A DNA stretch of 64,000 nucleotides, taken from NCBI GenBank assembly GCA_015065065.1, contig SVQX01000003.1:21930-85929 (forward strand), read 5' to 3'. Positions 20,134-62,931 of the stretch are shown here, piece by piece. This stretch comes from Oscillospiraceae bacterium. Lineage in GTDB: Bacteria; Bacillota; Clostridia; Oscillospirales; CAG-272. Within the stretch, counting starts at the first letter, position 1. Each line of letters opens with the position of its first letter. The notes under the pieces were generated by a model. The model saw only the letters and a list, made by a program, of their open reading frames with translations. It searched no databases and had not been told where the DNA came from. Both the position numbers and the translations under genes were made by a program.

Positions 20134-20210
20134 GGCGGAATAGCTCAGTTGGCTAGAGCATTCGGTTCATACCCGACAGGTCGTTGGTTCAAGTCCGACT
20201 TCCGCTACCA
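20134..20210 (+). tRNA. tRNA-Met (anticodon CAT), CCA encoded
   Basis: Cloverleaf folded by hand: acceptor GGCGGAA/TTCCGCT, D-arm GCTC..GAGC, anticodon loop TTCATAC, T-arm GTTGG TTCAAGT CCGAC. Confidence 0.85.
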
Positions 20211-20213
20211 AAA

Positions 20214-20289
20214 GGCCCGTTGGTCAAGAGGCCTAAGACACCGCCCTTTCACGGCGGTAACAGCAGTTCGAATCTGCTACGGGTCACCA
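20214..20289 (+). tRNA. tRNA-Glu (anticodon TTC), CCA encoded
   Basis: GGCCCGTTGGTCAAG...CCCTTTCACGGCGG...GTTCGAATC...ACGGGTCACCA, the classic tRNA-Glu pattern. Confidence 0.85.
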
Positions 20290-42435: not shown

Positions 42436-42501
42436 GTAAAGTAAAAAGTAATAGTGAAAAGTGAATAGGTGATGTGGATTTCCGCCACGGCGGAAATCCA
42501 C
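42436..42501 (-). repeat. hairpin-plus-heptad element, family 1 (inverted orientation)
   Basis: GTAAAAA GTAATA GTGAAAA GTGAATA, then a 12-bp-stem hairpin GTGGATTTCCGC-CACG-GCGGAAATCCAC at 42474-42501. Confidence 0.85.
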
Positions 42502-42503
42502 CT

Positions 42504-42623
42504 GCACACGCTTCGCGTGGTGCGACTCTCAACTCTCAACTCTCAACTACCAACTATCAACTCTCAGCTACCAACTATCAACTACCAACTATCAACTCTC
42601 AACTACCAACTCTCAACTCTCAA
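42504..42623 (+). repeat. hairpin GCACACGC-TTC-GCGTGGTGC followed by 14 phased 7-nt repeats (CTNNCAA)
   Basis: Units from 42526: CTCTCAA x6, CTACCAA x4, CTATCAA x3 and CTCTCAG x1, with no phase break. Confidence 0.9.
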
Positions 42624-42944
42624 CTTGACATGCTCCGCCACGTCCCGCGCCAGCACCGAGTACCCCGTCATTATCACCTCAGCATATTCCGTAAGCCTGT
42701 GCCACGCCACACCGTCCAAGGCAACCGCTCGCAGGTGCGCCTCCCCGTCCTGAATGTGATACTGCACCTTCACGCCGTAGCCGCAGTCATCAAGCGCCGC
42801 AAAGCTCTGTGCCGCCGTGTAAAACAAGGTGGAAATGCCGGCACACACAATGTCAGAGCCTAAATTTGCAAAGCCCGCGTGACCGAATATGTCGATCGTA
42901 AATATCATTCGCGCATCGTCTGCGCGTATCTCAATATTCGTCAT
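42603..42944 (-). CDS. prp: Prp-family cysteine protease (ribosomal L27-processing type), phage-encoded
   Basis: FGHAGFANLGSDIVCAGISTL matches the GHA...D.VCA.VS His/Cys signature of Prp (DUF464). The last 7 codons and the stop lie inside the heptad array. Confidence 0.75.
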   Translation of the reverse strand: MTNIEIRADDARMIFTIDIFGHAGFANLGSDIVCAGISTLFYTAAQSFAALDDCGYGVKVQYHIQDGEAHLRAVALDGVAWHRLTEYAEVIMTGYSVLARDVAEHVKLRVESW

Positions 42945-42947
42945 ACG

Positions 42948-44900
42948 TTATACCGGAGACGTGGTCGCCGCACTCCTCTCCCGCGCCTTTCTCGTCACGT
43001 GTGATTCGCCCTCCGCCCCGTCTGCTGTAGGGACAGGCGTCCTCGACTGTCCGTCTGTGACAGGCGTCCTCTGTCCGCTTATCCTTCCCGCGCCGCCGCT
43101 CGCCGCCAGCTCGGGTGCTATCTGCGCCACCATAGCGGAGTAATTCGTACCGCTCGACGCATCAACCGTCTGCGCCAGAGCAAACGCCATCTGCTGAAGC
43201 TGTATCAGCTTTTGATAAAGCGTGCCGTTTCGCATGATCTTCTGCATCACCATGTCCTTGCGGTCAAAGTCCATCATATCAAGGCAGGCAAGAGATGCGT
43301 CCGCATTCTGCGGGTTGAAAAATCCCGCGTTCAGGAATTGAAGCGCCATTTCATTCTGCGCGAGCCGGCTGTACGGGCTCTGCTTTTCGGCAGAGATCTC
43401 AATATCAAATACGGGAGAACGGTATACAGGCTGACCGTCCGAGTCAATACCCGCAGGCTGCGGCTTTATTTTCTCGTTGGAATAGCGGATAAAGGTCTCC
43501 GCTCCGCCATCCCCTACCACGCGGAAATAATGCGGAGTGTCGTAGAACTGACGTATCAGCTCGATAACCAGCTCTACAATGCGGCGGAAAGCGCGATAAG
43601 TGCCCTTGTTTGAGTCACGTGACCGTTTGCCGCCCGCCTCCTGCATGGCGGCAATACCGGACGCCGTGGTAACTCCGGAGGTAGTGCCGCCGTTGGATAC
43701 GTCGCGGTTACCCGTGACCTCCTTGAGCTCCTCAACCTTGCCCGTAAGCACGTTTAAGTAAATTGCTGACAGCGGCTTTGTCTGAAGCGGCTGTATCGCG
43801 TTTGGATCTCCCGTGTAATGCACGACCTTCTTTTTTCGGTCAAGCAGCTCACCCTCGTTGATGCCCGCCGCCTCGCTTCCGAAATATCGGGAGGATGAGC
43901 CGTCAAGCATGTTTTCCATAACTGCCTGCGAGCCGCGGTCTATGTATTCCTGAGGACTCTTGCCGATATCTATATAACCAAAACCTGCAGGCGTACCCTC
44001 ACAGGGAATGAGAATGTCCAAAACGAAGGGATACTTACCGTGATCGTATAGTCCCCTCTCTGCCGCTTGAGGATCGTTTTCCGTCGCATATAAAACCTCC
44101 GTGTTGATAAATTTGCAAAAGTGAAGTACGGTTTTGCCACCAACCGTCTTTTTGTAATACCAGTCGATAACGGCGCTCTTTTCAGCGGTATTTATACTGT
44201 CGTCGTGGATGTATTCGCCGACAGCCACGTTTCTGCCGCCAAGCTTGCCGCGAAGCTGCGGATACATTCCCTCCAGCAGCTTGTTGTCGTAAAGAGTAAC
44301 AAGAAATATGTTTTGCGAGTCCTGAATATCCGTGATACTCGGCTCCCAGAACAGATTGAGCACGTCAACGTCCTTAACCGTTATCTCGCCAAGCCCACCC
44401 GCAGCTGTCGCGTCCCAGAACACACCGTACACACTCGTGCCGTGCTTGAGCTTGGGATAGAGCGCGCGTGAATAGATTTCCTCAAACCCTATGTGATCGA
44501 ATATAACGGGCACGATTGAGGAAAGGATCTTGGCTTCACTCACGTCCCCCTCCTCTCGCGGTACGATATTCGGTCGAGGATAGTTATCCATGCCGTCCGC
44601 GTGCTTACTCAGAATGGAATCGAGCAGCCATGCAGAGGTAGGCTCTACCTCCTCAGGAATGTCGTTGCCGTTCTCGTCCTTTCTGTTTTTCCGCAAAGCT
44701 GCCCAGTGGCGCAAGCGGAACCACTCCTCATCCTCAATTATGCGCGCGTCAAGGTTAGCCTTGCCCGCCTTGTATTTTTGGAAAAGCTCCATAGCATCGC
44801 GGAGCTGTACCTCCCCTATAGGTAATTCCCGCGCCGCCCCCTCGACCTGCATATCCGCCCCCTGCTGCTCCGCTCTCAATATTTCATCTGCAAAATCCAT
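42948..44900 (-). CDS. portal protein
   Basis: ATG 44900 follows AAAGGAGA. The call rests on size (650 aa) and position between terminase and Prp/scaffold. No specific motif recognised. Confidence 0.6.
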   Translation of the reverse strand: MDFADEILRAEQQGADMQVEGAARELPIGEVQLRDAMELFQKYKAGKANLDARIIEDEEWFRLRHWAALRKNRKDENGNDIPEEVEPTSAWLLDSILSKHADGMDNYPRPNIVPREEGDVSEAKILSSIVPVIFDHIGFEEIYSRALYPKLKHGTSVYGVFWDATAAGGLGEITVKDVDVLNLFWEPSITDIQDSQNIFLVTLYDNKLLEGMYPQLRGKLGGRNVAVGEYIHDDSINTAEKSAVIDWYYKKTVGGKTVLHFCKFINTEVLYATENDPQAAERGLYDHGKYPFVLDILIPCEGTPAGFGYIDIGKSPQEYIDRGSQAVMENMLDGSSSRYFGSEAAGINEGELLDRKKKVVHYTGDPNAIQPLQTKPLSAIYLNVLTGKVEELKEVTGNRDVSNGGTTSGVTTASGIAAMQEAGGKRSRDSNKGTYRAFRRIVELVIELIRQFYDTPHYFRVVGDGGAETFIRYSNEKIKPQPAGIDSDGQPVYRSPVFDIEISAEKQSPYSRLAQNEMALQFLNAGFFNPQNADASLACLDMMDFDRKDMVMQKIMRNGTLYQKLIQLQQMAFALAQTVDASSGTNYSAMVAQIAPELAASGGAGRISGQRTPVTDGQSRTPVPTADGAEGESHVTRKARERSAATTSPV

Positions 44901-44914
44901 ATTTATAAATTCTC

Positions 44915-44967
44915 CTTTCAACTTTCAATTTTCAATTCACTTTCAACTCTCAACTATCAACTCTCAA
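44915..44967 (+). repeat. heptad tract without an adjacent hairpin
   Basis: CTTTCAA CTTTCAA TTTTCAA (TTCA) CTTTCAA CTCTCAA CTATCAA CTCTCAA. Confidence 0.8.
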
Positions 44968-45236
44968 CTCCGCATTATCTCCACCCTCGCTCTGCCCGGA
45001 GGCGTTGTGAGATCCTCGCGCCTGATGTTCAGCGCGTCGAATATCCTTCCCTCAAGGGGACCGCGTCGCGCCGCATTCATCCTGGGCGCTATCGGTCGCA
45101 TCATGCAGAAATACCGTGCTTCGTCGGCACAGTTATGCGCGACCACGCCGCCCTGTATGACAAAATCATGTGTATCCGCTACTTCCATGTTGTATACGTC
45201 ACGCTCTCCAACGTAGCTTACCGACTTAACTTTCAT
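44964..45236 (-). CDS. terL: terminase large subunit, C-terminal fragment: 35-aa C-intein plus C-extein
   Basis: MKVKSVSYVGERDVYNMEVADTHDFVIQGGVVAHN|CADEARYFCMM. This shows the canonical intein block G (VAHN followed by Cys+1) and the terminase DxxRY-type motif. Confidence 0.8.
   Translation of the reverse strand: MKVKSVSYVGERDVYNMEVADTHDFVIQGGVVAHNCADEARYFCMMRPIAPRMNAARRGPLEGRIFDALNIRREDLTTPPGRARVEIMRS
45132..45236 (-). other. split-intein C-half (IntC, 35 aa)
   Basis: Same length class and sequence pattern as DnaE-type IntC. The Cys+1 codon lies at 45129-45131. Confidence 0.75.
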
Positions 45237-45738
45237 TCAGCTCCTCCTTTATCCTGTTGCGGCGAAACGAAGCACGGCAGTTCTGATGACAAAAACGGTT
45301 CGCGCCTTCAACGTATACATGCCGTGTTTGAAACGACTTTCCGCAAAAGGTGCATACATATTCACGTAGCGGAGCCTTTTCCCAATATTCTTTTGCGTGC
45401 GCTCCATGCCACGCCGCACCCTCTACGCTCCCATGCCACGCAGAAGCATATTTGAGTGCCTTTTTAATGTCACGTCGGCTTTGTTCAACACGTTCGGGGG
45501 ATTTCATATGTTTTCGCTGATGCTCTTTACCTTGCATCATGCACAGATTAGATATGGAATTGTTATGCCTATCGCCGTCTATATGGTGGATATCAAATCC
45601 CTTTGGAATACTGCCATTGTGGTATTCCCACACCGCTCGATGCAGTCTTTTGCCTTTGCGTTGAAAATAAGCTCCGCACAGGTAAAACATTTCTCCGTTA
45701 AATTCCTGTTTGGTATTGCTTATCACGTTTACCTGCAT
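45226..45738 (-). CDS. free-standing HNH homing-endonuclease-like gene between the intein halves
   Basis: ATG 45738 follows GGAGGTG. Motif HRAVWEYHNGSIPKGFDIHHIDGDRHNNSISNL (HNH), plus a C-terminal CxxC...CxxxC. It overlaps both flanking ORFs by about 10 nt. Confidence 0.8.
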   Translation of the reverse strand: MQVNVISNTKQEFNGEMFYLCGAYFQRKGKRLHRAVWEYHNGSIPKGFDIHHIDGDRHNNSISNLCMMQGKEHQRKHMKSPERVEQSRRDIKKALKYASAWHGSVEGAAWHGAHAKEYWEKAPLREYVCTFCGKSFQTRHVYVEGANRFCHQNCRASFRRNRIKEELNES

Positions 45739-47312
45739 ATCCGCACCTCCGTTTTGTTGGGTAGCATATCTTTTATTCGTACCCACGTTCCGTCCTCTCT
45801 CATTATCCGGTGATCTTCTGTGCCCTCAAAAACTGTTCCATCCTCAAGCTCTACACGATATACCTTGGCTTTTCTTCTCGTCATACGAACGTCAGAAAAA
45901 CGGTGATATTCGCCATCATGCGATAATACCAATCCTTCCTTCCCCACCAAGCGTTCAATCGGTACATAGCCTTCATCAGTACGAATGAGCGTATCCCCAA
46001 CAAGACAGTGGTCCTCGCCCGAGGAATCCACGTCCTCCACACGCACGTCGTCAAACTGAAGCGCGGGCAGGGTGCGGATGAAGTCGCGGCAGTTATTGAA
46101 TACGTACATCTGCGCAAAGCCCTCCTCGTCAAAGCTGAGGCGGTAATGCAGCTGCATCCAGCCGGGTATGCGCTCGTGATCTCCCTTGTTAAAGTAAACG
46201 CGCCGAGACGCGGCAACCTCCGCTATTGACGGGCCGCCGTTCTGCGCCCAGATAGCGGGATCGGCAACACCGATTATCTGTTTACCCTTTAGCCACCTGT
46301 GTTCCCTCTCGGTACGCGCTATCTCCTCAAATATCCGTTCGTTGTTCCACTTAACACCCGTGTCGGGACTGCTCTCCTTGCAACCGTAAAGCTCAAGGAT
46401 GCGGTACGCCACACCCTGATAATCCACAGCCCACCAGCCACAGGAGAAGGGCTTGGCATATCCCCAGTCGAAGCTACGGTATATGTTCCAACCGTCCGGA
46501 ATATCGAAAGGCTTGATAACGTGCGTCCACCGTCTGTCCTCGTAGTGGGCGGGATCGTTTTTCCATTCTGCGAATACCTGCCCCGTGTAGCTGTCCCAAT
46601 TTCCGTAAAGCAGAGCCTCGCGCTCTGCCTCGGGCATTGACGCAAGCCTTGTAATGTACTCGGGATTTGCATCAAGCAACGCCTTGTTGTCAAATACGCT
46701 GGCAGGGATAAATATGCGGGAGAGCCGTCCAACCACTCGCTTGCCCTCGGGGGTAACGTACTCGTGATCCGTCCACATTGTAGTCATTGGCGGCGCGGGA
46801 GTAATGAATCTGTCCTTTACCCATCCGTGACCGACTCCTCCGGGGTTTGCGGATGCGCGGATATAGCACCGCGTGCCGGGACCGTTTGGACGGTTACGGG
46901 ATATCAGATAGATGTATTCCTCAAGTGTAAAATGTGTCAGCTCGTCAAAGGCGATATAGTCGTAAGCGCGACCTTGGTATTTGAGCTTGTCCTGAGTGCG
47001 GTGCAGATCTCCGAAAATGACCTTCGCACCGCTCGGAAAGGTCCACGAATGCTTTGCCTCGTTGTACTTTGCCTTCGGATATATCAGCGGATAGTAGTTC
47101 TGACTTTTGCCGATAAGCTCCTCAAGCTCAGGGTACGTCTTACGGAGAAGCAGCCCCTTGTAGTGCGGTATGTCTACCTGACGGAGGGCTTCAAGCACCA
47201 AAGCCTCCGACTTTCCGCCCCCCGCCGCTCCGCCGTAAAGCGCTTCATATTCCGCCCGCGCCATAAATGCCGCCTGCCTCGGCTGCGGCGACCAAACCAC
47301 GTTCTTACCCAT
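45729..47312 (-). CDS. terL: terminase large subunit, N-terminal fragment: N-extein plus 92-aa N-intein
   Basis: ATG 47312 follows AAGGAGG. Walker A LYGGAAGGGKSEAL and Walker B YDYIAFDELTHF. The intein starts at GEDH|CLVGDTLIRTDEG (Cys1 codon 46005-46007), with an in-frame stop 92 aa later. Confidence 0.85.
   Translation of the reverse strand: MGKNVVWSPQPRQAAFMARAEYEALYGGAAGGGKSEALVLEALRQVDIPHYKGLLLRKTYPELEELIGKSQNYYPLIYPKAKYNEAKHSWTFPSGAKVIFGDLHRTQDKLKYQGRAYDYIAFDELTHFTLEEYIYLISRNRPNGPGTRCYIRASANPGGVGHGWVKDRFITPAPPMTTMWTDHEYVTPEGKRVVGRLSRIFIPASVFDNKALLDANPEYITRLASMPEAEREALLYGNWDSYTGQVFAEWKNDPAHYEDRRWTHVIKPFDIPDGWNIYRSFDWGYAKPFSCGWWAVDYQGVAYRILELYGCKESSPDTGVKWNNERIFEEIARTEREHRWLKGKQIIGVADPAIWAQNGGPSIAEVAASRRVYFNKGDHERIPGWMQLHYRLSFDEEGFAQMYVFNNCRDFIRTLPALQFDDVRVEDVDSSGEDHCLVGDTLIRTDEGYVPIERLVGKEGLVLSHDGEYHRFSDVRMTRRKAKVYRVELEDGTVFEGTEDHRIMREDGTWVRIKDMLPNKTEVRICR
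45732..46007 (-). other. split-intein N-half (IntN, 92 aa)
   Basis: Block A CLVGDTLI and a block-B-like GTEDHRI. It ends at a stop codon, not at an endonuclease domain. Confidence 0.75.
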
Positions 47313-47341: not shown

Positions 47342-47400
47342 GATTTCCGCCACAGCGGAAATCGTCCTTCACTATTCACTTTTCACTCTTCACTCTTCAC
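47342..47400 (+). repeat. hairpin-plus-heptad element, family 1
   Basis: GATTTCCGC-CACA-GCGGAAATC, then CCTTCAC TATTCAC TTTTCAC TCTTCAC TCTTCAC. The terS stop (47390-47392) lies inside the heptads. Confidence 0.85.
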
Positions 47401-47848
47401 TTTTTTCGTCTATCATTTCCGCCAACGGCAGCATCACAGTTCCACCCTGCACCGCATCAACAGATACCTCGACCTTGTCGCGCCAGCGCTCGGGGTTGCG
47501 GTTGTTCAGCCAATATTTCTGCGCGCGGAAATCCGCAGGGAGAACTACCACCTTGTCCTCGACAAGCTCCTTTATCTCACCGTTCTTGTCAAGCACCTGC
47601 TTGTGAAGCTTGACGACCTGTGTGCGATCAAAGCAACACTTGTATATCTCCTTTTCCACCGCCTCGCACTTTTCGCGGTCGTAGAGTACGGAGCGAATAA
47701 CGTCGCTCTTTTTGCACCAACGGTTAAGTGTTGTGCGGGTAATTCCTATACGTCTGGCAATTTCGCCGAGATCCAGCGTAGCCCACTGACGTAACCGCTC
47801 AAGACCTTCACCGCCGGTATATTCCTCAATGCTGACTCCGCGAGCCAT
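47390..47848 (-). CDS. terS: terminase small subunit (HTH)
   Basis: ATG 47848 follows GGAGGTGAGCGG. HTH LGEIARRIGITRTTLNRWCKK. Lies immediately upstream of terL. Confidence 0.6.
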   Translation of the reverse strand: MARGVSIEEYTGGEGLERLRQWATLDLGEIARRIGITRTTLNRWCKKSDVIRSVLYDREKCEAVEKEIYKCCFDRTQVVKLHKQVLDKNGEIKELVEDKVVVLPADFRAQKYWLNNRNPERWRDKVEVSVDAVQGGTVMLPLAEMIDEKSEE

Positions 47849-49255: not shown

Positions 49256-49549
49256 ATTTTCTCCTCTTTTTTATTTTCCGCGCAGGCGGATATATGGGGC
49301 GCCGCCCCACACCCCGCAAGCCTTTCTTTCGAGAAAGGCTTGACCGAAAGAACTTGCCCGCAAATTATTTTTGTCTAAATTTGTTTACGATGGTTACAAC
49401 CGCAACCATCTCTATAACCCCCGTGGGACCCTCTCCCACCGGGCTATTTAATTTTCAATTTTCAATTCGCATAATATGTATCGCGTGTGCGCGCACCGCC
49501 GCCCGCGCCCGCCGCTCTGCACGTTTGTAACATTCCCACCGACCGCGCG

Positions 49550-52839: not shown

Positions 52840-52901
52840 GATTTCCGCCGCACAGGCGGAAATCATCCACCACTTTTCACTTTTCACTATTAACTATTAA
52901 C
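52840..52901 (+). repeat. hairpin-plus-heptad element, family 1
   Basis: GATTTCCGCC-GCACA-GGCGGAAATC, then TTTTCAC TTTTCAC TATTAAC TATTAAC. Confidence 0.85.
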
Positions 52902-52907
52902 TCTCTC

Positions 52908-60522: not shown

Positions 60523-60605
60523 AAATCTAAAAATAGATTTTGTCAATAGAAAAAATCTATTTTTAGAGTTTTCTACCTTTTGCCTAAAATCTAAATTTAG
60601 AATTT
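60523..60605. promoter_or_regulatory. operator triad upstream of the cI-like gene
   Basis: Three TCTA-N4-TAGA palindromes at 60526-60537, 60556-60567 and 60590-60601. Confidence 0.65.
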
Positions 60606-60630
60606 GTTAAAAACAAACAAGGAGGTTTTT

Positions 60631-61500
60631 ATGTTTTACACCAACCTGCAAAAAATATGCAAAGAGCGCGGCACAACGCCAACAGCCGTGGCCAAAGCCA
60701 TAGGTATCAGCACATCTATGACTGCCAATTGGAAGAAAGGCGGTATGCCGCGTGGCGACACCCTGCAAAAGCTCGCCTCTTATTTCGGCGTAACCACCGA
60801 CTACCTACTCGGTTCCGAGTTGACAACCATTGCTTTTGCAGAACCTAATGAACTTAACGGATACACTATGTTCAAACAAAATTTCATTCGACTGTGTAAT
60901 CAAAAAGGCGAATCCCCTTCGGCTGTATGCATTAAGGTAGGCATAACCCCTGCCACTTTTTCCTGCTGGACGGACGAGTCCGTTCCGCGTAAAGCAACCC
61001 TTATGAGAATAGCCGACTATTTCGGCGTATCTGTTAACTACCTGCTCGGCACCGAAAAAGAAAACGCGCCCGGCATAAAACCGAACGCAATATTTTTGGA
61101 GGAAAAGAATGTCCACCTCATCCCCGTGTACGAAACTGTGTCCGCAGGCTTCGGTGCTTTGGCGGATAACAGCATAATTGATTATACCCCCCTCTATTTC
61201 ACAAGCGCGGCAGAGGCGGCGGAGACCATCTGCATAAAGGTCAAGGGAGACAGCATGTACCCCAAGATCGAGGAAGGCGACGTAATACAGGTGCATAAAA
61301 CGGATAGCGTTGACAGCGGCACTATTGCCGTCGTGCTGCTTGACGGCGACGAGGGACTTGTCAAGCGCGTGGAGTACGGCGAAAGCTTTATCGAGCTGCA
61401 GTCCATAAATCCTATGTACCCGCCCATGCGCTTTGAGGGAGCCGATACGCTCCGCATCCGCATCCTCGGCGCGGTAAAGAAAATTATCAAGAGTATCTAA
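60631..61500 (+). CDS. cI/LexA-like repressor with two tandem HTH domains and an S24 peptidase domain
   Basis: ATG 60631 follows GGAGG. HTH 1 TAVAKAIGISTSMTANW and HTH 2 SAVCIKVGITPATFSCW. Motifs VKGDSMYP and LVKRV (Ser/Lys dyad). Confidence 0.8.
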   Translation: MFYTNLQKICKERGTTPTAVAKAIGISTSMTANWKKGGMPRGDTLQKLASYFGVTTDYLLGSELTTIAFAEPNELNGYTMFKQNFIRLCNQKGESPSAVCIKVGITPATFSCWTDESVPRKATLMRIADYFGVSVNYLLGTEKENAPGIKPNAIFLEEKNVHLIPVYETVSAGFGALADNSIIDYTPLYFTSAAEAAETICIKVKGDSMYPKIEEGDVIQVHKTDSVDSGTIAVVLLDGDEGLVKRVEYGESFIELQSINPMYPPMRFEGADTLRIRILGAVKKIIKSI

Positions 61501-61515
61501 TCAGGGAGATCAACT

Positions 61516-62931
61516 ATGCCTGCACTCATTATATACGTTATCACGGTTGCCATACTGGGCATATATATATTGATTTTACGCGGAGATAGGGAATCCTTGC
61601 AAAGTAGCAAGGAATGGGACAAAAAATATTACCAAGATCTTTTGTCCCAAGAGGAACGAAAGCAAGCACAAAAATATAAAAAACTTTATGACGAACAATC
61701 CGGAATTCTCCAAGCAGAGCGCCTTCGCTTGGAAGATGAAGAAAAAGATTTAAAAGCACAATACGAAAAGATGTGTGCCGAACAATCAAATATTCTCCAA
61801 GCAGAGCGCCTTCGCTTGGAAGATGAAGAAAAAGATTTAAAAGCACAATACGAAAAGATGTGTGCCGAACAATCAAATATTCTCCAAGCAGAGCGCCTTC
61901 GTCTACAGTACGAAAGAAAGAAATCAAAAGAACAATACGATAAGCTTTGCGCCGAGACCGAGGATCTAAAATCGCGGTATGAGCTTATGCACCGTGAATT
62001 CGATCAATACATAAAGGATAAATGTCAAGCATACCCCCATCTTGCAGCAATCCAAGCCGATTTGATGACGGCTCACTATGCTCGCTCTGCCTTTTATCTC
62101 CGCAATAAAAAAAGTCCGGCTTTGGTGGAAGCGCAGCGAATAGACGAATTAAAAAAAGAAACCAAGAAAATTTGTGAAGAAAAAAAGCTTATCGAGTACA
62201 AGCTGGCGTATATTGAGGAATGCTTCCCCAATATAAATGATATCTTTGATGACGGTTTTAATGAAGAATCCGATTTTGAATTAGAAACCTCGGAAAACAC
62301 TGACCGAGTAAAATTTTATCTTTCTGCAGAAGAATATCGTTCATTGTCAACTACTCGTAAAAACCAACTGGCTCTTGACCGCTATCTTCTAGGCAGAAAA
62401 AGCAAGTGGCAGATTGGCAGAGATTATGAAATGTATATAGGCTACCTCTATGAAAATCAAGGATTTAATGTTCAGTACACGGGAATTATTGAGAACTTTG
62501 AAGATATGGGACGCGACTTGATCGTGACGCGGCAGGGCAAAACATATATCATACAATGTAAAAATTGGTCCAAGGAAAAGACTATTCACGAAAAGCATAT
62601 TTTTCAGTTGTTCGGAACGGTAACTCTATATAACATCGATCACGCAACTGCTCCGGCGTGCGGTGTTTTTGTCACCACTACTGAGCTATCATCCAAAGCA
62701 AAACTTATCGCAGACTATCTCGGCATTAAAGTATCCCACATAAATCTCGGCGATTTCCCACGCATTAAATGTAATATTAACCGCACGACCGGAGAAAAAA
62801 TATATCATCTTCCTTTTGATCAGCAATATGACCGCGTGGTCGTAGAGAAAAATCACGGCGAAAGTTACGAGTTTACTGTAAAGGATGCGGAGTCCAAAGG
62901 ATTTCGACGTGCTTTTAAGCATTTTGCATAA
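61516..62931 (+). CDS. TM-anchored coiled-coil protein with a C-terminal Mrr-cat-like restriction endonuclease fold
   Basis: N-terminal TM segment. 87-bp tandem repeat at 61693-61905. C-terminal GRDYEMYIGYLYENQGF...GRDLIVTRQGKTYIIQCKNW (D...QxK pattern). Confidence 0.6.
   Translation: MPALIIYVITVAILGIYILILRGDRESLQSSKEWDKKYYQDLLSQEERKQAQKYKKLYDEQSGILQAERLRLEDEEKDLKAQYEKMCAEQSNILQAERLRLEDEEKDLKAQYEKMCAEQSNILQAERLRLQYERKKSKEQYDKLCAETEDLKSRYELMHREFDQYIKDKCQAYPHLAAIQADLMTAHYARSAFYLRNKKSPALVEAQRIDELKKETKKICEEKKLIEYKLAYIEECFPNINDIFDDGFNEESDFELETSENTDRVKFYLSAEEYRSLSTTRKNQLALDRYLLGRKSKWQIGRDYEMYIGYLYENQGFNVQYTGIIENFEDMGRDLIVTRQGKTYIIQCKNWSKEKTIHEKHIFQLFGTVTLYNIDHATAPACGVFVTTTELSSKAKLIADYLGIKVSHINLGDFPRIKCNINRTTGEKIYHLPFDQQYDRVVVEKNHGESYEFTVKDAESKGFRRAFKHFA

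What the first reader, a model, noticed from the sequence alone, without database searches (positions are those of the whole stretch)
44964..47312. Terminase large subunit is a fractured gene: split intein (92-aa IntN, 35-aa IntC) with a free-standing HNH endonuclease gene between the halves
The N fragment carries Walker A and B motifs and ends ...VDSSGEDH|CLVGDTLIRTDEG..., with a stop codon 92 aa into the intein. A separate ORF in another frame encodes an HNH enzyme (45226-45738, own GGAGGTG RBS). A third ORF with its own AAGGAGGAG RBS starts MKVKSVSYVGERDVYNMEVADTHDFVIQGGVVAHN|CADEARYF. That is a 35-aa IntC followed by Cys+1 and the terminase nuclease-domain motif. The sizes and block motifs match naturally split inteins. 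By established knowledge, fractured genes with split inteins and intervening homing endonuclease genes were described from metagenomes (Dassa et al. 2009). Functional TerL would then require protein trans-splicing in every lytic cycle. The pair could also be a compact new orthogonal split-intein reagent.
Basis: partly seen in the sequence, partly recalled or inferred. Interest (0 to 1): 0.7.

Follow-up and report, generated by a model that had tools for sequence, protein, structure and literature searches.

The report
Split-intein terminase gene with HNH insert
A prophage's DNA-packaging enzyme (large terminase) is really encoded in two pieces that carry the two halves of a self-splicing intein, with a selfish HNH nuclease gene between them; this is a genuine, widespread but little-annotated example of an arrangement first described in 2009.

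Summary
On the minus strand lie three overlapping ORFs:
- TerL-N (435 aa) plus IntN (92 aa), at 47312-45729.
- An HNH_3 endonuclease (170 aa), at 45738-45226.
- IntC (35 aa) plus TerL-C (55 aa), at 45236-44964.

It is not a sequencing error. The 2.5-kb region is 100% identical in 10 contigs from 10 samples. Fifty distinct relatives keep the split layout with Cys1 and His-Asn|Cys intact. One relative has the HNH gene on the opposite strand.

Intein-less homologues (488-491 aa) read straight across the site: GEDH|(I/A/V)ADE. Contiguous mini-intein alleles, split alleles without HNH and alleles with a decayed HNH also exist.

Both intein halves and the HNH gene are under purifying selection (dN/dS about 0.1-0.2). 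The fused halves match the Npu DnaE split intein, and the break falls at the same point.

Two phages deposited as complete genomes with named hosts, Lactobacillus phage CL2 and Brochothrix phage BL3, carry the same kind of locus without annotation.

Most likely mechanism: co-translated fragments associate and trans-splice into a 490-aa TerL, while the HNH enzyme drives homing.

This is a new member of a known kind (fractured genes, Dassa 2009). Trans-splicing itself is inferred, not shown. Interest is moderate.

The parts
47390..47848 (-). Terminase small subunit gene (context; first gene of the packaging module)
   Evidence: PHROG 309 terminase small subunit, E 4.7e-21.
46008..47312 (-). TerL N-extein, 435 aa: ATPase domain and most of the nuclease domain, ending ...VDSSGEDH
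   Evidence: Pfam Terminase_6N, E 1.5e-11. PHROG 979 terminase large subunit, E 2.5e-58. Intein-less homologues of 488-491 aa cover exactly this part.
45729..46007 (-). IntN, 92 aa plus stop codon TAA at 45731-45729. Cys1 (CLVGDT, block A) and TEDH (block B).
   Evidence: TIGR01445 at 436-504, 35.6 bits. Aligns to the IntN part of Npu DnaE. Cys1 is present in 50/50 split relatives.
45744..45750 (-). Shine-Dalgarno GGAGGTG of the HNH gene, 5 nt before its ATG, inside the IntN coding sequence
   Evidence: Read directly from the sequence.
45226..45738 (-). Free-standing HNH endonuclease gene, 170 aa: HNH_3 domain plus a C-terminal Cys4 zinc-ribbon-like region. It is in a different frame from TerL and overlaps both neighbours.
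   Evidence: Pfam HNH_3, E 1.6e-17. PHROG 15471 HNH endonuclease, E 2e-32. Homologues sit at the same place in relatives, on either strand. dN/dS about 0.12.
45241..45249 (-). Shine-Dalgarno AAGGAGGAG of the IntC/TerL-C gene, 4 nt before its ATG, inside the HNH coding sequence
   Evidence: Read directly from the sequence.
45132..45236 (-). IntC, 35 aa (MKVKSVSYVGERDVYNMEVADTHDFVIQGGVVAHN): blocks F and G, ending His-Asn
   Evidence: TIGR01443, 17.3 bits against a cut-off of 15.6. Matches the N-terminus of cyanobacterial DnaE-C (PRK07373 positions 2-39). HN|C is present in 50/50 relatives, and 40/50 are exactly 35 aa.
44964..45131 (-). TerL C-extein, 55 aa plus stop, starting Cys+1: CADEARYFCMMRP...
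   Evidence: Collinear with the C-terminus of intein-less TerL (GEDH|IADETRYFCMMRP).
42948..44921 (-). Portal gene immediately downstream (context)
   Evidence: The precomputed Pfam call P22_portal for the identical gene in L001.

Best explanation
This is a genuine fractured terminase large-subunit gene in a prophage-like element of a Ruminococcaceae/Oscillospiraceae bacterium. A class-1 intein sits precisely between His435 and the next residue of the conserved nuclease-domain motif GEDH|xADE. The intein is broken at the canonical homing-endonuclease insertion point by a free-standing HNH_3 endonuclease gene.

Shown here:
- There are three separate, overlapping ORFs, each with its own start codon. 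Each of the two downstream ORFs has its own Shine-Dalgarno sequence.
- All canonical splicing residues are present: Cys1, block-B Thr-x-x-His, C-terminal His-Asn and Cys+1.
- The insertion is exact relative to intein-less alleles.
- The layout is conserved under purifying selection across many divergent phages.

Inferred:
- The terS / terL-N / HNH / terL-C / portal block is transcribed as one late message.
- The 527-aa and 90-aa products associate through IntN and IntC into a HINT fold.
- They undergo protein trans-splicing: N-S acyl shift at Cys1, trans-thioesterification to Cys+1, Asn35 cyclisation, then S-N shift.
- This releases a 490-aa TerL with the junction ...GEDH-CADE..., which restores the nuclease motif.
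- The HNH protein is a homing endonuclease. It cuts intein-less terL alleles of co-resident related phages and so copies the intein and itself into them.
For: Anatomy:
- ORFs, overlaps and ribosome-binding sites are as described.
- Domain matches are above the curated cut-offs.
- The fused IntN+IntC matches the Npu DnaE intein at E 1e-9. The natural break aligns with the DnaE split site.
- The fragments match the split DnaE-N C-terminus and the DnaE-C N-terminus.
- An AF2 model of the fused halves finds only inteins in the PDB, best Npu DnaE at E 1e-7, TM 0.60.

Not an artefact:
- The identical 90-aa fragment occurs in at least 22 contigs. The 2.5-kb region is 100% identical, with no indels, in 10 contigs from 10 JGI/ENA/Logan samples.

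Conserved architecture:
- Relatives at 57-63% identity have N fragment + HNH + 81-90-aa C fragment (L011, L012).
- L013 has different inserted genes.
- L015 has the HNH gene plus an RHH gene on the opposite strand.
- In IMG/VR, 58 of 80 loci are split with an own-ORF HNH gene.
- 548 protein clusters match the IntC+TerL-C profile, and nearly all of the best 120 are 71-94 aa long.

Precise insertion:
- Intein-less homologues are 488-491 aa, equal to 435+55, and read GEDH|(I/A/V)ADE.
- The empty-site DNA in L122 is GAGGACCAT|ATCGCGGATGAG.
- A contiguous mini-intein sits at the same site in P0062 and L098.

Selection:
- Cys1 and HN|C are present in 50/50 distinct split variants.
- dN/dS is 0.19 for IntN, 0.16 for IntC, 0.12 for HNH and 0.32 for the N-extein.

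Evidence bearing on function:
- Split alleles persist after the HNH gene is lost or decays (L019, L100, L099).
- Lactobacillus phage CL2 and Brochothrix phage BL3, deposited as complete genomes with named hosts, have the same kind of split terL.
- There is only one TerL in the window.
Against: - No protein-level evidence of splicing exists for this or any member of this family.
- Overall charges of IntN (-1) and IntC (-2) are not complementary, unlike DnaE or gp41-1.
- The dS values behind the dN/dS estimates are near saturation (about 1.5), so the ratios are rough.
- The structural model is single-sequence and only moderately confident (pLDDT 63).
- That the HNH enzyme cuts the empty terL site is inferred from position and patchy distribution only.
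- Whether this particular prophage is inducible is unknown, and no integrase was identified.
Confidence: 0.8

Rival explanations
1. Sequencing or assembly artefact. The locus is really an ordinary contiguous intein with an in-frame HNH domain, and two compensating indels create the apparent stops and frame changes.
For: The N and C fragments are in the same frame. One 1-nt insertion and one 1-nt deletion near homopolymer runs could in principle join the three ORFs.
Against: - The region is 100% identical in 10 contigs from 10 independent samples and three assembly pipelines.
- Fifty divergent variants keep separate ORFs, in several different frame geometries.
- In L015/L016 the HNH gene is on the opposite strand.
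- Both downstream ORFs have their own Shine-Dalgarno sequence and ATG.
Confidence: 0.01
2. Decaying gene in a defective prophage. The HNH gene invaded and broke the intein, TerL is no longer made, and the fragments are pseudogene remnants.
For: - No integrase or induction evidence exists for this element.
- Some relatives show decay: an HNH remnant in L099 and a frameshifted N-extein in L100.
Against: - dN/dS is 0.16-0.19 on both intein halves, and every catalytic residue is kept in 50/50 variants at 40-70% identity.
- The ORFs are intact in all lineages.
- The same architecture occurs in the deposited phage genomes CL2 and BL3.
- The packaging, head and tail genes around it are intact.
Confidence: 0.06
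3. Non-covalent reconstitution. The intein halves only act as a dimerisation handle that holds the two TerL pieces together, and no peptide bond is formed. This would resemble the intein-less split NrdA of phage Aeh1.
For: Split genes interrupted by homing endonuclease genes can work without splicing (Aeh1 nrdA and Aeromonas phage 25 gp43, as cited in PMC2677866).
Against: - Strict conservation of Cys1, TxxH, His-Asn and Cys+1 is needed for chemistry, not for binding.
- The break lies inside the invariant nuclease motif EDH|xADE. A retained 127-aa HINT domain would therefore sit in the active site.
- Contiguous mini-intein alleles at the same site must splice to be functional.
Confidence: 0.06
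4. The HNH protein is not a selfish homing endonuclease. Instead it is a packaging co-factor of the terminase, like the HNH proteins of HK97-like phages, and its position inside terL is functional.
For: HNH proteins next to terminase genes can be part of the packaging machine (Kala et al. 2014, listed in the references of PMC10055350). The HNH gene here is under purifying selection.
Against: - It occupies exactly the endonuclease insertion point of the intein.
- It belongs to HNH_3, a family typical of phage homing endonucleases.
- In otherwise similar phages it is absent (L019, L100, BL3), decayed (L099), replaced by other genes (L013) or inverted (L015).
- The closest TerL homologues have neither intein nor HNH.
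Confidence: 0.07

Closest known systems
Fractured genes with split inteins and free-standing homing endonuclease genes (Dassa et al. 2009, PMC2677866; for example gp41-1, NrdJ-1, IMPDH-1)
   Same: - The gene order is the same: N-extein+IntN, then a free-standing endonuclease ORF, then IntC+C-extein.
- The break lies between motifs N4 and C2.
- IntN of 88-105 aa and IntC of 33-54 aa bracket the 92/35 aa seen here.
- The host is a phage-type gene.
   Different: - The endonucleases in that paper were GIY-YIG or Vsr-like, and HNH was only predicted to be able to do this.
- Its single terminase locus was gp17-like and split atypically, with a 122-aa IntC.
- The present family is from gut or rumen Firmicutes phages, not marine samples.
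GOS-TerL and AceL-TerL naturally split inteins
   Same: They are naturally split inteins in phage terminase large subunits, with Cys+1, and trans-splicing has been shown experimentally (PMC11766414).
   Different: - Those are atypically split: IntN 25-37 aa and IntC 104-115 aa.
- Here the split is canonical (92/35).
Cyanobacterial DnaE split intein (Npu/Ssp)
   Same: It is the best sequence and fold match. The split position is identical, IntC is 35-36 aa, and it uses class-1 Cys1/Cys+1 chemistry.
   Different: - Identity is only about 27%.
- The DnaE halves are encoded far apart with no endonuclease gene between them.
- DnaE halves are charge-complementary, whereas these are not obviously so.
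Split PolB intein with an HNH gene in Pseudomonas jumbo phage MIJ3 (PMC6892783)
   Same: An HNH-family homing endonuclease ORF lies between the two halves of a split intein in an isolated phage.
   Different: The host protein is DNA polymerase B and the intein uses Ser1/Ser+1. It is a single reported case rather than a large family.
Actinobacteriophage inteins with endonucleases in another reading frame (bioRxiv 10.1101/2025.01.02.630785)
   Same: The same idea applies: a free-standing endonuclease gene invades an intein, giving out-of-frame or split arrangements, and many of these are in TerL. Relatives of the present intein show the nested out-of-frame form (L050, L057, L105-L108).
   Different: - In the window the TerL frame is closed by about 12 stop codons, so the intein is truly split, not contiguous.
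- The out-of-frame types listed there were endonuclease VII-like, Vsr-like and antisense LAGLIDADG, not HNH_3.

Membership tests
Intein (HINT splicing domain, class 1) | N-terminal splicing region: Cys/Ser1 (block A) and Thr-x-x-His (block B) | tested here: met
   CLVGDT... and ...GTEDH are present. TIGR01445 scores 35.6 bits against a cut-off of 24.5. Cys1 is present in 50/50 relatives.
Intein (HINT splicing domain, class 1) | C-terminal splicing region: blocks F and G ending His-Asn, followed by Cys/Ser/Thr at +1 | tested here: met
   ...VVAHN|C is present. TIGR01443 scores 17.3 bits against a cut-off of 15.6. HN|C is present in 50/50 relatives.
Intein (HINT splicing domain, class 1) | Precise insertion into a conserved site of a host protein whose intein-less homologues are collinear across the site | tested here: met
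   GEDH|CADE here against GEDH|(I/A/V)ADE in homologues of 488-491 aa. The empty-site DNA was also compared.
Intein (HINT splicing domain, class 1) | HINT fold | tested here: met
   phmmer of the fused halves against the PDB hits Npu DnaE at E 1e-9 over the whole domain. The AF2 model (pLDDT 63) returns only inteins, with top TM 0.60. The model confidence is moderate.
Intein (HINT splicing domain, class 1) | Protein splicing activity | not testable with these tools
   This needs expression of the fragments followed by western blot or mass spectrometry.
Naturally split intein / fractured gene (Dassa 2009) | The two intein halves lie on separate ORFs, each fused to one extein piece and each with its own translation signals | tested here: met
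   There are stop codons, start codons and Shine-Dalgarno sequences. The layout is reproduced in 10 independent assemblies and in divergent relatives.
Naturally split intein / fractured gene (Dassa 2009) | The break is at the canonical endonuclease insertion point, between motifs N4 and C2(F) | tested here: met
   The break aligns with the DnaE split site. IntN is 92 aa and IntC 35 aa.
Naturally split intein / fractured gene (Dassa 2009) | A free-standing homing-endonuclease-type ORF lies between the halves | tested here: met
   A 170-aa HNH_3 ORF sits in another frame.
Naturally split intein / fractured gene (Dassa 2009) | Local charge complementarity between the halves | tested here: inconclusive
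   Net charge is IntN -1 and IntC -2. Relatives vary from -3 to +5 for IntN. No interface model was made.
Naturally split intein / fractured gene (Dassa 2009) | Protein trans-splicing of the two products | not testable with these tools
   It is inferred from residue conservation, dN/dS and deposited phage genomes with the same layout.
HNH homing endonuclease | HNH catalytic motif | tested here: met
   PF13392 HNH_3 scores 63.3 bits. PHROG 15471 HNH endonuclease.
HNH homing endonuclease | Patchy, mobile-element-like distribution at one genomic site | tested here: met
   At the same intein position in relatives it is present, absent, decayed, inverted or replaced.
HNH homing endonuclease | Site-specific cleavage of the element-free allele | not testable with these tools
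   This needs a cleavage assay on intein-less terL DNA, for example the L122 site.
Contiguous HNH-containing (full-length) intein | Extein, splicing domain and endonuclease lie in one uninterrupted reading frame | tested here: not met
   The TerL frame has about 12 stop codons across the HNH region, and the HNH gene is in another frame. In-frame relatives do exist elsewhere (L109-L111).
Atypically split TerL inteins (AceL-TerL / GOS-TerL) | Short IntN (25-37 aa) and long IntC (more than 100 aa) | tested here: not met
   IntN is 92 aa and IntC 35 aa. Literature values are taken from PMC11766414.

The most novel reading that the evidence does not exclude
The TerL nuclease-motif site DH|xADE may host a very large, still-active intein and homing-endonuclease life cycle in Firmicutes phages, with every stage extant:
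- an empty site;
- a contiguous mini-intein;
- a split intein without an endonuclease gene;
- a split intein with a sense or an antisense HNH gene;
- a contiguous intein with the HNH gene overprinted in another frame;
- an in-frame HNH intein.

On this reading the split state is not just tolerated but selectively maintained. It might delay assembly of the terminase nuclease until both halves are made, or serve as a weapon in phage-phage competition. It would also provide hundreds of mutually divergent canonical split-intein pairs as a natural orthogonal toolbox.
Probability: 0.15. Interest if true: 0.65.

Novelty: new member of a known kind. Interest (0 to 1): 0.42.

Why it matters
- **Annotation.** An essential phage gene is routinely mis-annotated. 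The public record calls the pieces 'Terminase-like family protein', 'HNH endonuclease' and 'hypothetical protein'. In phage CL2 the C fragment is not annotated at all. TerL-based phage taxonomy and completeness checks will therefore mis-score such genomes.
- **Evolution.** The family supplies, at one insertion site, all the intermediates of the gene-breaking model for how split inteins arise (Dassa 2009). It includes two deposited phage genomes with named hosts in which the model could be tested.
- **Tools.** It offers many divergent canonical Cys1/Cys+1 split inteins (35-aa IntC) from organisms growing near 37 °C. These are candidate orthogonal ligation reagents.

None of this overturns current understanding.

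Tried and rejected
- **Programmed frameshifting to make one polypeptide.** Going from the N frame to the HNH frame needs a -1 shift, but the 58-nt overlap has no X XXY YYZ slippery heptamer. The idea is also impossible in relatives with an antisense HNH gene. Rejected.
- **A second, intact TerL in the window.** An HMM scan of all six frames found only this one.
- **Mapping the insertion site onto a solved terminase nuclease structure.** phmmer of the spliced 490-aa TerL and a 33-sequence profile gave no PDB hit, even at E 1. The statement that the site lies in the nuclease active-site motif therefore rests on invariance of D434/H435/D438 and on general knowledge of TerL nucleases.
- **Near or distant DNA search in GenBank phages.** It found only weak TerL matches in unannotated gut phage contigs.
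- **Internal terminators or promoters separating the three ORFs.** Nothing convincing was found.
- **Charge complementarity of the halves.** Not evident.
- **Horizontal transfer of the intein.** Comparing intein and extein identity gave only a weak hint. Intein and HNH identity stay at 45-60% while extein identity ranges from 42% to 64%, and no close donor was found.
- **Literature searches.** They found no report of canonical TerL split inteins with an HNH gene, nor of the CL2 or BL3 loci. The library lacks most subscription journals, so absence is not proof.
Full report
**1. What is in the sequence**

All features lie on the minus strand.

- ORF 47312..45729 encodes 527 aa. The first 435 aa are a terminase large subunit (Pfam Terminase_6N, E 1.5e-11; PHROG 979, E 2.5e-58). 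It has Walker A YGGAAGGGKS and Walker B YDYIAFDE and ends ...VDSSGEDH.
- The last 92 aa start CLVGDTLIRTDEG, contain GTEDH, and stop at ...EVRICR*.
- A 170-aa ORF at 45738..45226 is in another frame and overlaps the first by 10 nt. GGAGGTG lies 5 nt before its ATG. It is an HNH_3 endonuclease (E 1.6e-17; PHROG 15471) with a Cys-rich C-terminal region.
- A 90-aa ORF at 45236..44964 overlaps the HNH gene by 11 nt. AAGGAGGAG lies 4 nt before its ATG. It reads MKVKSVSYVGERDVYNMEVADTHDFVIQGGVVAHN|CADEARYFCMMRP...
- The terminase small subunit lies directly upstream and the portal gene directly downstream.
- The N and C fragments happen to be in the same frame, but that frame has about 12 stop codons across the HNH region.

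**2. Are these intein halves?**

- NCBIfam TIGR01445 (intein N-terminal region) matches residues 436-504 at 35.6 bits, against a cut-off of 24.5.
- TIGR01443 (intein C-terminal region) matches residues 13-36 of the small ORF at 17.3 bits, against a cut-off of 15.6.
- The two fragments also hit the C-terminal end of the cyanobacterial split DnaE-N model and the very N-terminus of the DnaE-C model.
- Joined in silico, IntN+IntC match the Npu DnaE intein structures 4kl5 and 2keq at E 1e-9 over the whole domain. The natural break falls exactly where DnaE is split.
- A single-sequence AlphaFold model of the joined halves is only moderately confident (pLDDT 63). Even so, Foldseek returns only inteins and related HINT (bacterial intein-like) domains among the listed hits, led by Npu DnaE and gp41-1.
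- The residues needed for class-1 splicing are all present: Cys1, Thr-x-x-His, terminal His-Asn and Cys+1.

**3. Artefact or real?**

- The exact 90-aa product is found on at least 22 contigs.
- In 10 contigs from 10 different JGI, ENA and Logan samples, the whole 2.5-kb region is 100% identical with no indel.
- Divergent relatives settle the matter. N fragments at 57-63% identity are followed by an HNH_3 gene and an 81-90-aa IntC fragment in L011 and L012.
- L013 carries two unrelated small genes in place of the HNH gene.
- L015 carries the HNH gene plus a ribbon-helix-helix gene on the opposite strand.
- Frame relationships differ between loci.
- A contiguous intein with two compensating sequencing errors is therefore excluded. 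Programmed frameshifting is excluded as well.

**4. The insertion site and its alleles**

- Most TerL homologues are 488-491 aa, which equals 435 + 55. They read GEDH|(I/A/V)ADE..RYFCM straight across the site.
- The closest one is 76% identical (74% to the spliced 490-aa TerL). It shows the empty site at the DNA level: GAGGACCAT|ATCGCGGATGAG, against GAGGACCAC|...|TGTGCCGACGAA in the window.
- D434, H435 and D438 are invariant in 33 homologues. The intein therefore sits in a conserved motif of the nuclease domain, as is typical of inteins. I could not map the motif onto a solved structure.

At this same site I found the following alleles:

| Allele type | Examples |
|---|---|
| Contiguous mini-intein | P0062, L098 |
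| Split intein, no endonuclease gene | L019, L100, Brochothrix phage BL3 |
| Split intein with a decayed HNH remnant | L099 |
| Split intein with sense HNH gene | the window and most relatives |
| Split intein with antisense HNH gene | L015 |
| Contiguous intein ORF with the HNH gene in a second frame of the same DNA | L050, L057, L105-L108 |

More distant in-frame HNH inteins also turned up (L109-L111). Their exteins did not match this TerL family, so I do not know whether they sit at the same site. Taken together the series comes close to the full set of intermediates in the gene-breaking model of Dassa et al. 2009.

**5. How common is it?**

- A scan of IMG/VR with an IntC+TerL-C alignment returned 80 loci. 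Of these, 58 are split with an own-ORF HNH gene.
- A profile search of 5.8 billion proteins gave 548 clusters. Nearly all of the best 120 are 71-94 aa long, that is, free-standing C fragments.
- Genome hits are MAGs of Eubacteriales, Clostridiales and Lachnospiraceae, and more distant ones come from other phyla.
- The window's own proteins are in GenBank as MBE6693393.1 'Terminase-like family protein', MBE6693392.1 'HNH endonuclease' and MBE6693391.1 'hypothetical protein', from a Ruminococcaceae/Oscillospiraceae MAG.
- Two phages deposited as complete genomes with named hosts carry the same kind of locus, without annotation.
  - Lactobacillus phage CL2: TerL ends in IntN, followed by an HNH gene. 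The IntC ORF is unannotated and has a plausible GTG start at 2538.
  - Brochothrix phage BL3: gp2 is TerL-N+IntN, and gp3 is a leader plus IntC plus the C-extein.

**6. Is it functional?**

- Across 50 distinct split variants, Cys1 and His-Asn|Cys are invariant, and IntC is 35 aa in 40 of them.
- Pairwise dN/dS is about 0.19 for IntN, 0.16 for IntC and 0.12 for HNH, against 0.32 for the N-extein. dS is close to saturation, so the values are rough.
- The window has no second TerL. Its packaging and head genes are intact.
- Split alleles survive after the HNH gene is lost.
- Phages CL2 and BL3 depend on such a gene. That they are viable cultured isolates is my understanding, not something a tool result showed.
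- Together this makes a dead gene or a mere non-covalent handle unlikely. Protein trans-splicing itself is still an inference.

**7. Mechanism proposed**

- The terS / terL-N / HNH / terL-C / portal block has no convincing internal terminator, and the ORFs overlap. This suggests one late transcript with coupled translation.
- The 527-aa and 90-aa products associate through IntN and IntC.
- They splice by the standard class-1 route and release a 490-aa TerL with the junction GEDH-CADE.
- The HNH protein most likely nicks or cuts intein-less terL alleles of related phages in the same cell, so that repair copies in the whole 0.9-kb element.
- Its position at the canonical endonuclease site supports a selfish role rather than a packaging role. 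So does its state in close relatives, where it is present, absent, decayed or inverted.

**8. Comparison with what is known**

- The arrangement is that of 'fractured genes' (Dassa et al. 2009, PMC2677866). That study found GIY-YIG and Vsr-like endonucleases, predicted that HNH could do the same, and had one terminase locus with an atypical split.
- GOS-TerL and AceL-TerL are characterised TerL split inteins, but both are atypically split.
- An HNH gene inside a split PolB intein was reported in jumbo phage MIJ3.
- Out-of-frame endonucleases in actinobacteriophage inteins were described in a 2025 preprint.
- I found no report of this canonical TerL/HNH family or of the CL2 and BL3 loci. The searchable library is incomplete.

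**9. Verdict**

The locus is a real, well-conserved, probably functional fractured terL gene, and a new member of a known kind. It is of moderate interest, mainly for the size and completeness of the family, for the annotation gap it exposes, and as a source of candidate split-intein tools.

Noticed in passing
window 42525-42625, 42438-42465, 44915-44969, 47367-47401, 52871-52902, 49450-49467: Tandem heptamer repeats fill the short intergenic spacers just upstream of late genes. On the coding strand they read TGATAGT x14, TTGAAAG x8 and AGTGAAG x5. The portal and TerL-N genes are among those preceded by them. Similar AGTGAAG-type arrays occur in one related phage contig (L029) but not in most relatives. 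Their function is unknown; they might be a 5'-UTR or regulator-binding element.
   Followed up: partly
L050, L052-L055, L057, L058, L077, L080, L084, L105-L108 (for example L106 3619-4731 and 3885-4508): In these relatives the TerL/intein reading frame stays open for about 640 nt between IntN and IntC, while a full HNH_3 gene is encoded in a different frame of the same DNA. The result is a roughly 200-codon dual-coding stretch whose linker frame translates to low-complexity sequence. It is a nested, out-of-frame endonuclease inside a contiguous intein.
   Followed up: partly
L120 (Lactobacillus phage CL2, KR905067, 506-2771) and L121 (Brochothrix phage BL3, HM144386, 727-2607): Two phages deposited as complete genomes with named hosts have a fractured terL with split-intein halves that the records do not annotate as such. 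In CL2 the IntC/TerL-C ORF is missing from the annotation and overlaps the annotated portal start. In BL3 it is listed as 'gp3' with no function, and no endonuclease gene lies between the halves.
   Followed up: partly
phage records (for example Yersinia phage vB_YenM_TG1 20004-20108, Escherichia phage HY03 101352-101456): T4-like phages have recombinase (UvsX-like) fragments that begin with a related 35-aa IntC, often next to a GIY-YIG or other homing endonuclease gene. These look like further fractured genes in cultured phages.
   Followed up: no
P0054 and P0101: Related mini-inteins sit four residues further downstream in the same TerL motif (EDHIYDE|C...HN|CRY), which is a second insertion point next to the first.
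   Followed up: no
P0056 / L013 versus P0048 and P0053: Between nearly identical TerL alleles (1 change in 433 extein residues), the IntN part differs at 7-8 of 94 residues. This lineage also carries different inserted genes (71 aa and 164 aa, no Pfam hit). The pattern suggests recombination or relaxed constraint confined to the intein.
   Followed up: partly
window 61705-61901: A perfect 87-nt tandem repeat (2.3 copies) lies inside the Mrr-like restriction endonuclease ORF at 61516-62931.
   Followed up: no
window 20134-20289 and about 21500-61500: tRNA-Met and tRNA-Glu genes lie near the left edge of the roughly 40-kb minus-strand phage block. A CI/LexA-like repressor (60604-61500, plus strand) marks the other side. 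No integrase was recognised, so how or whether the element is integrated is unclear.
   Followed up: partly
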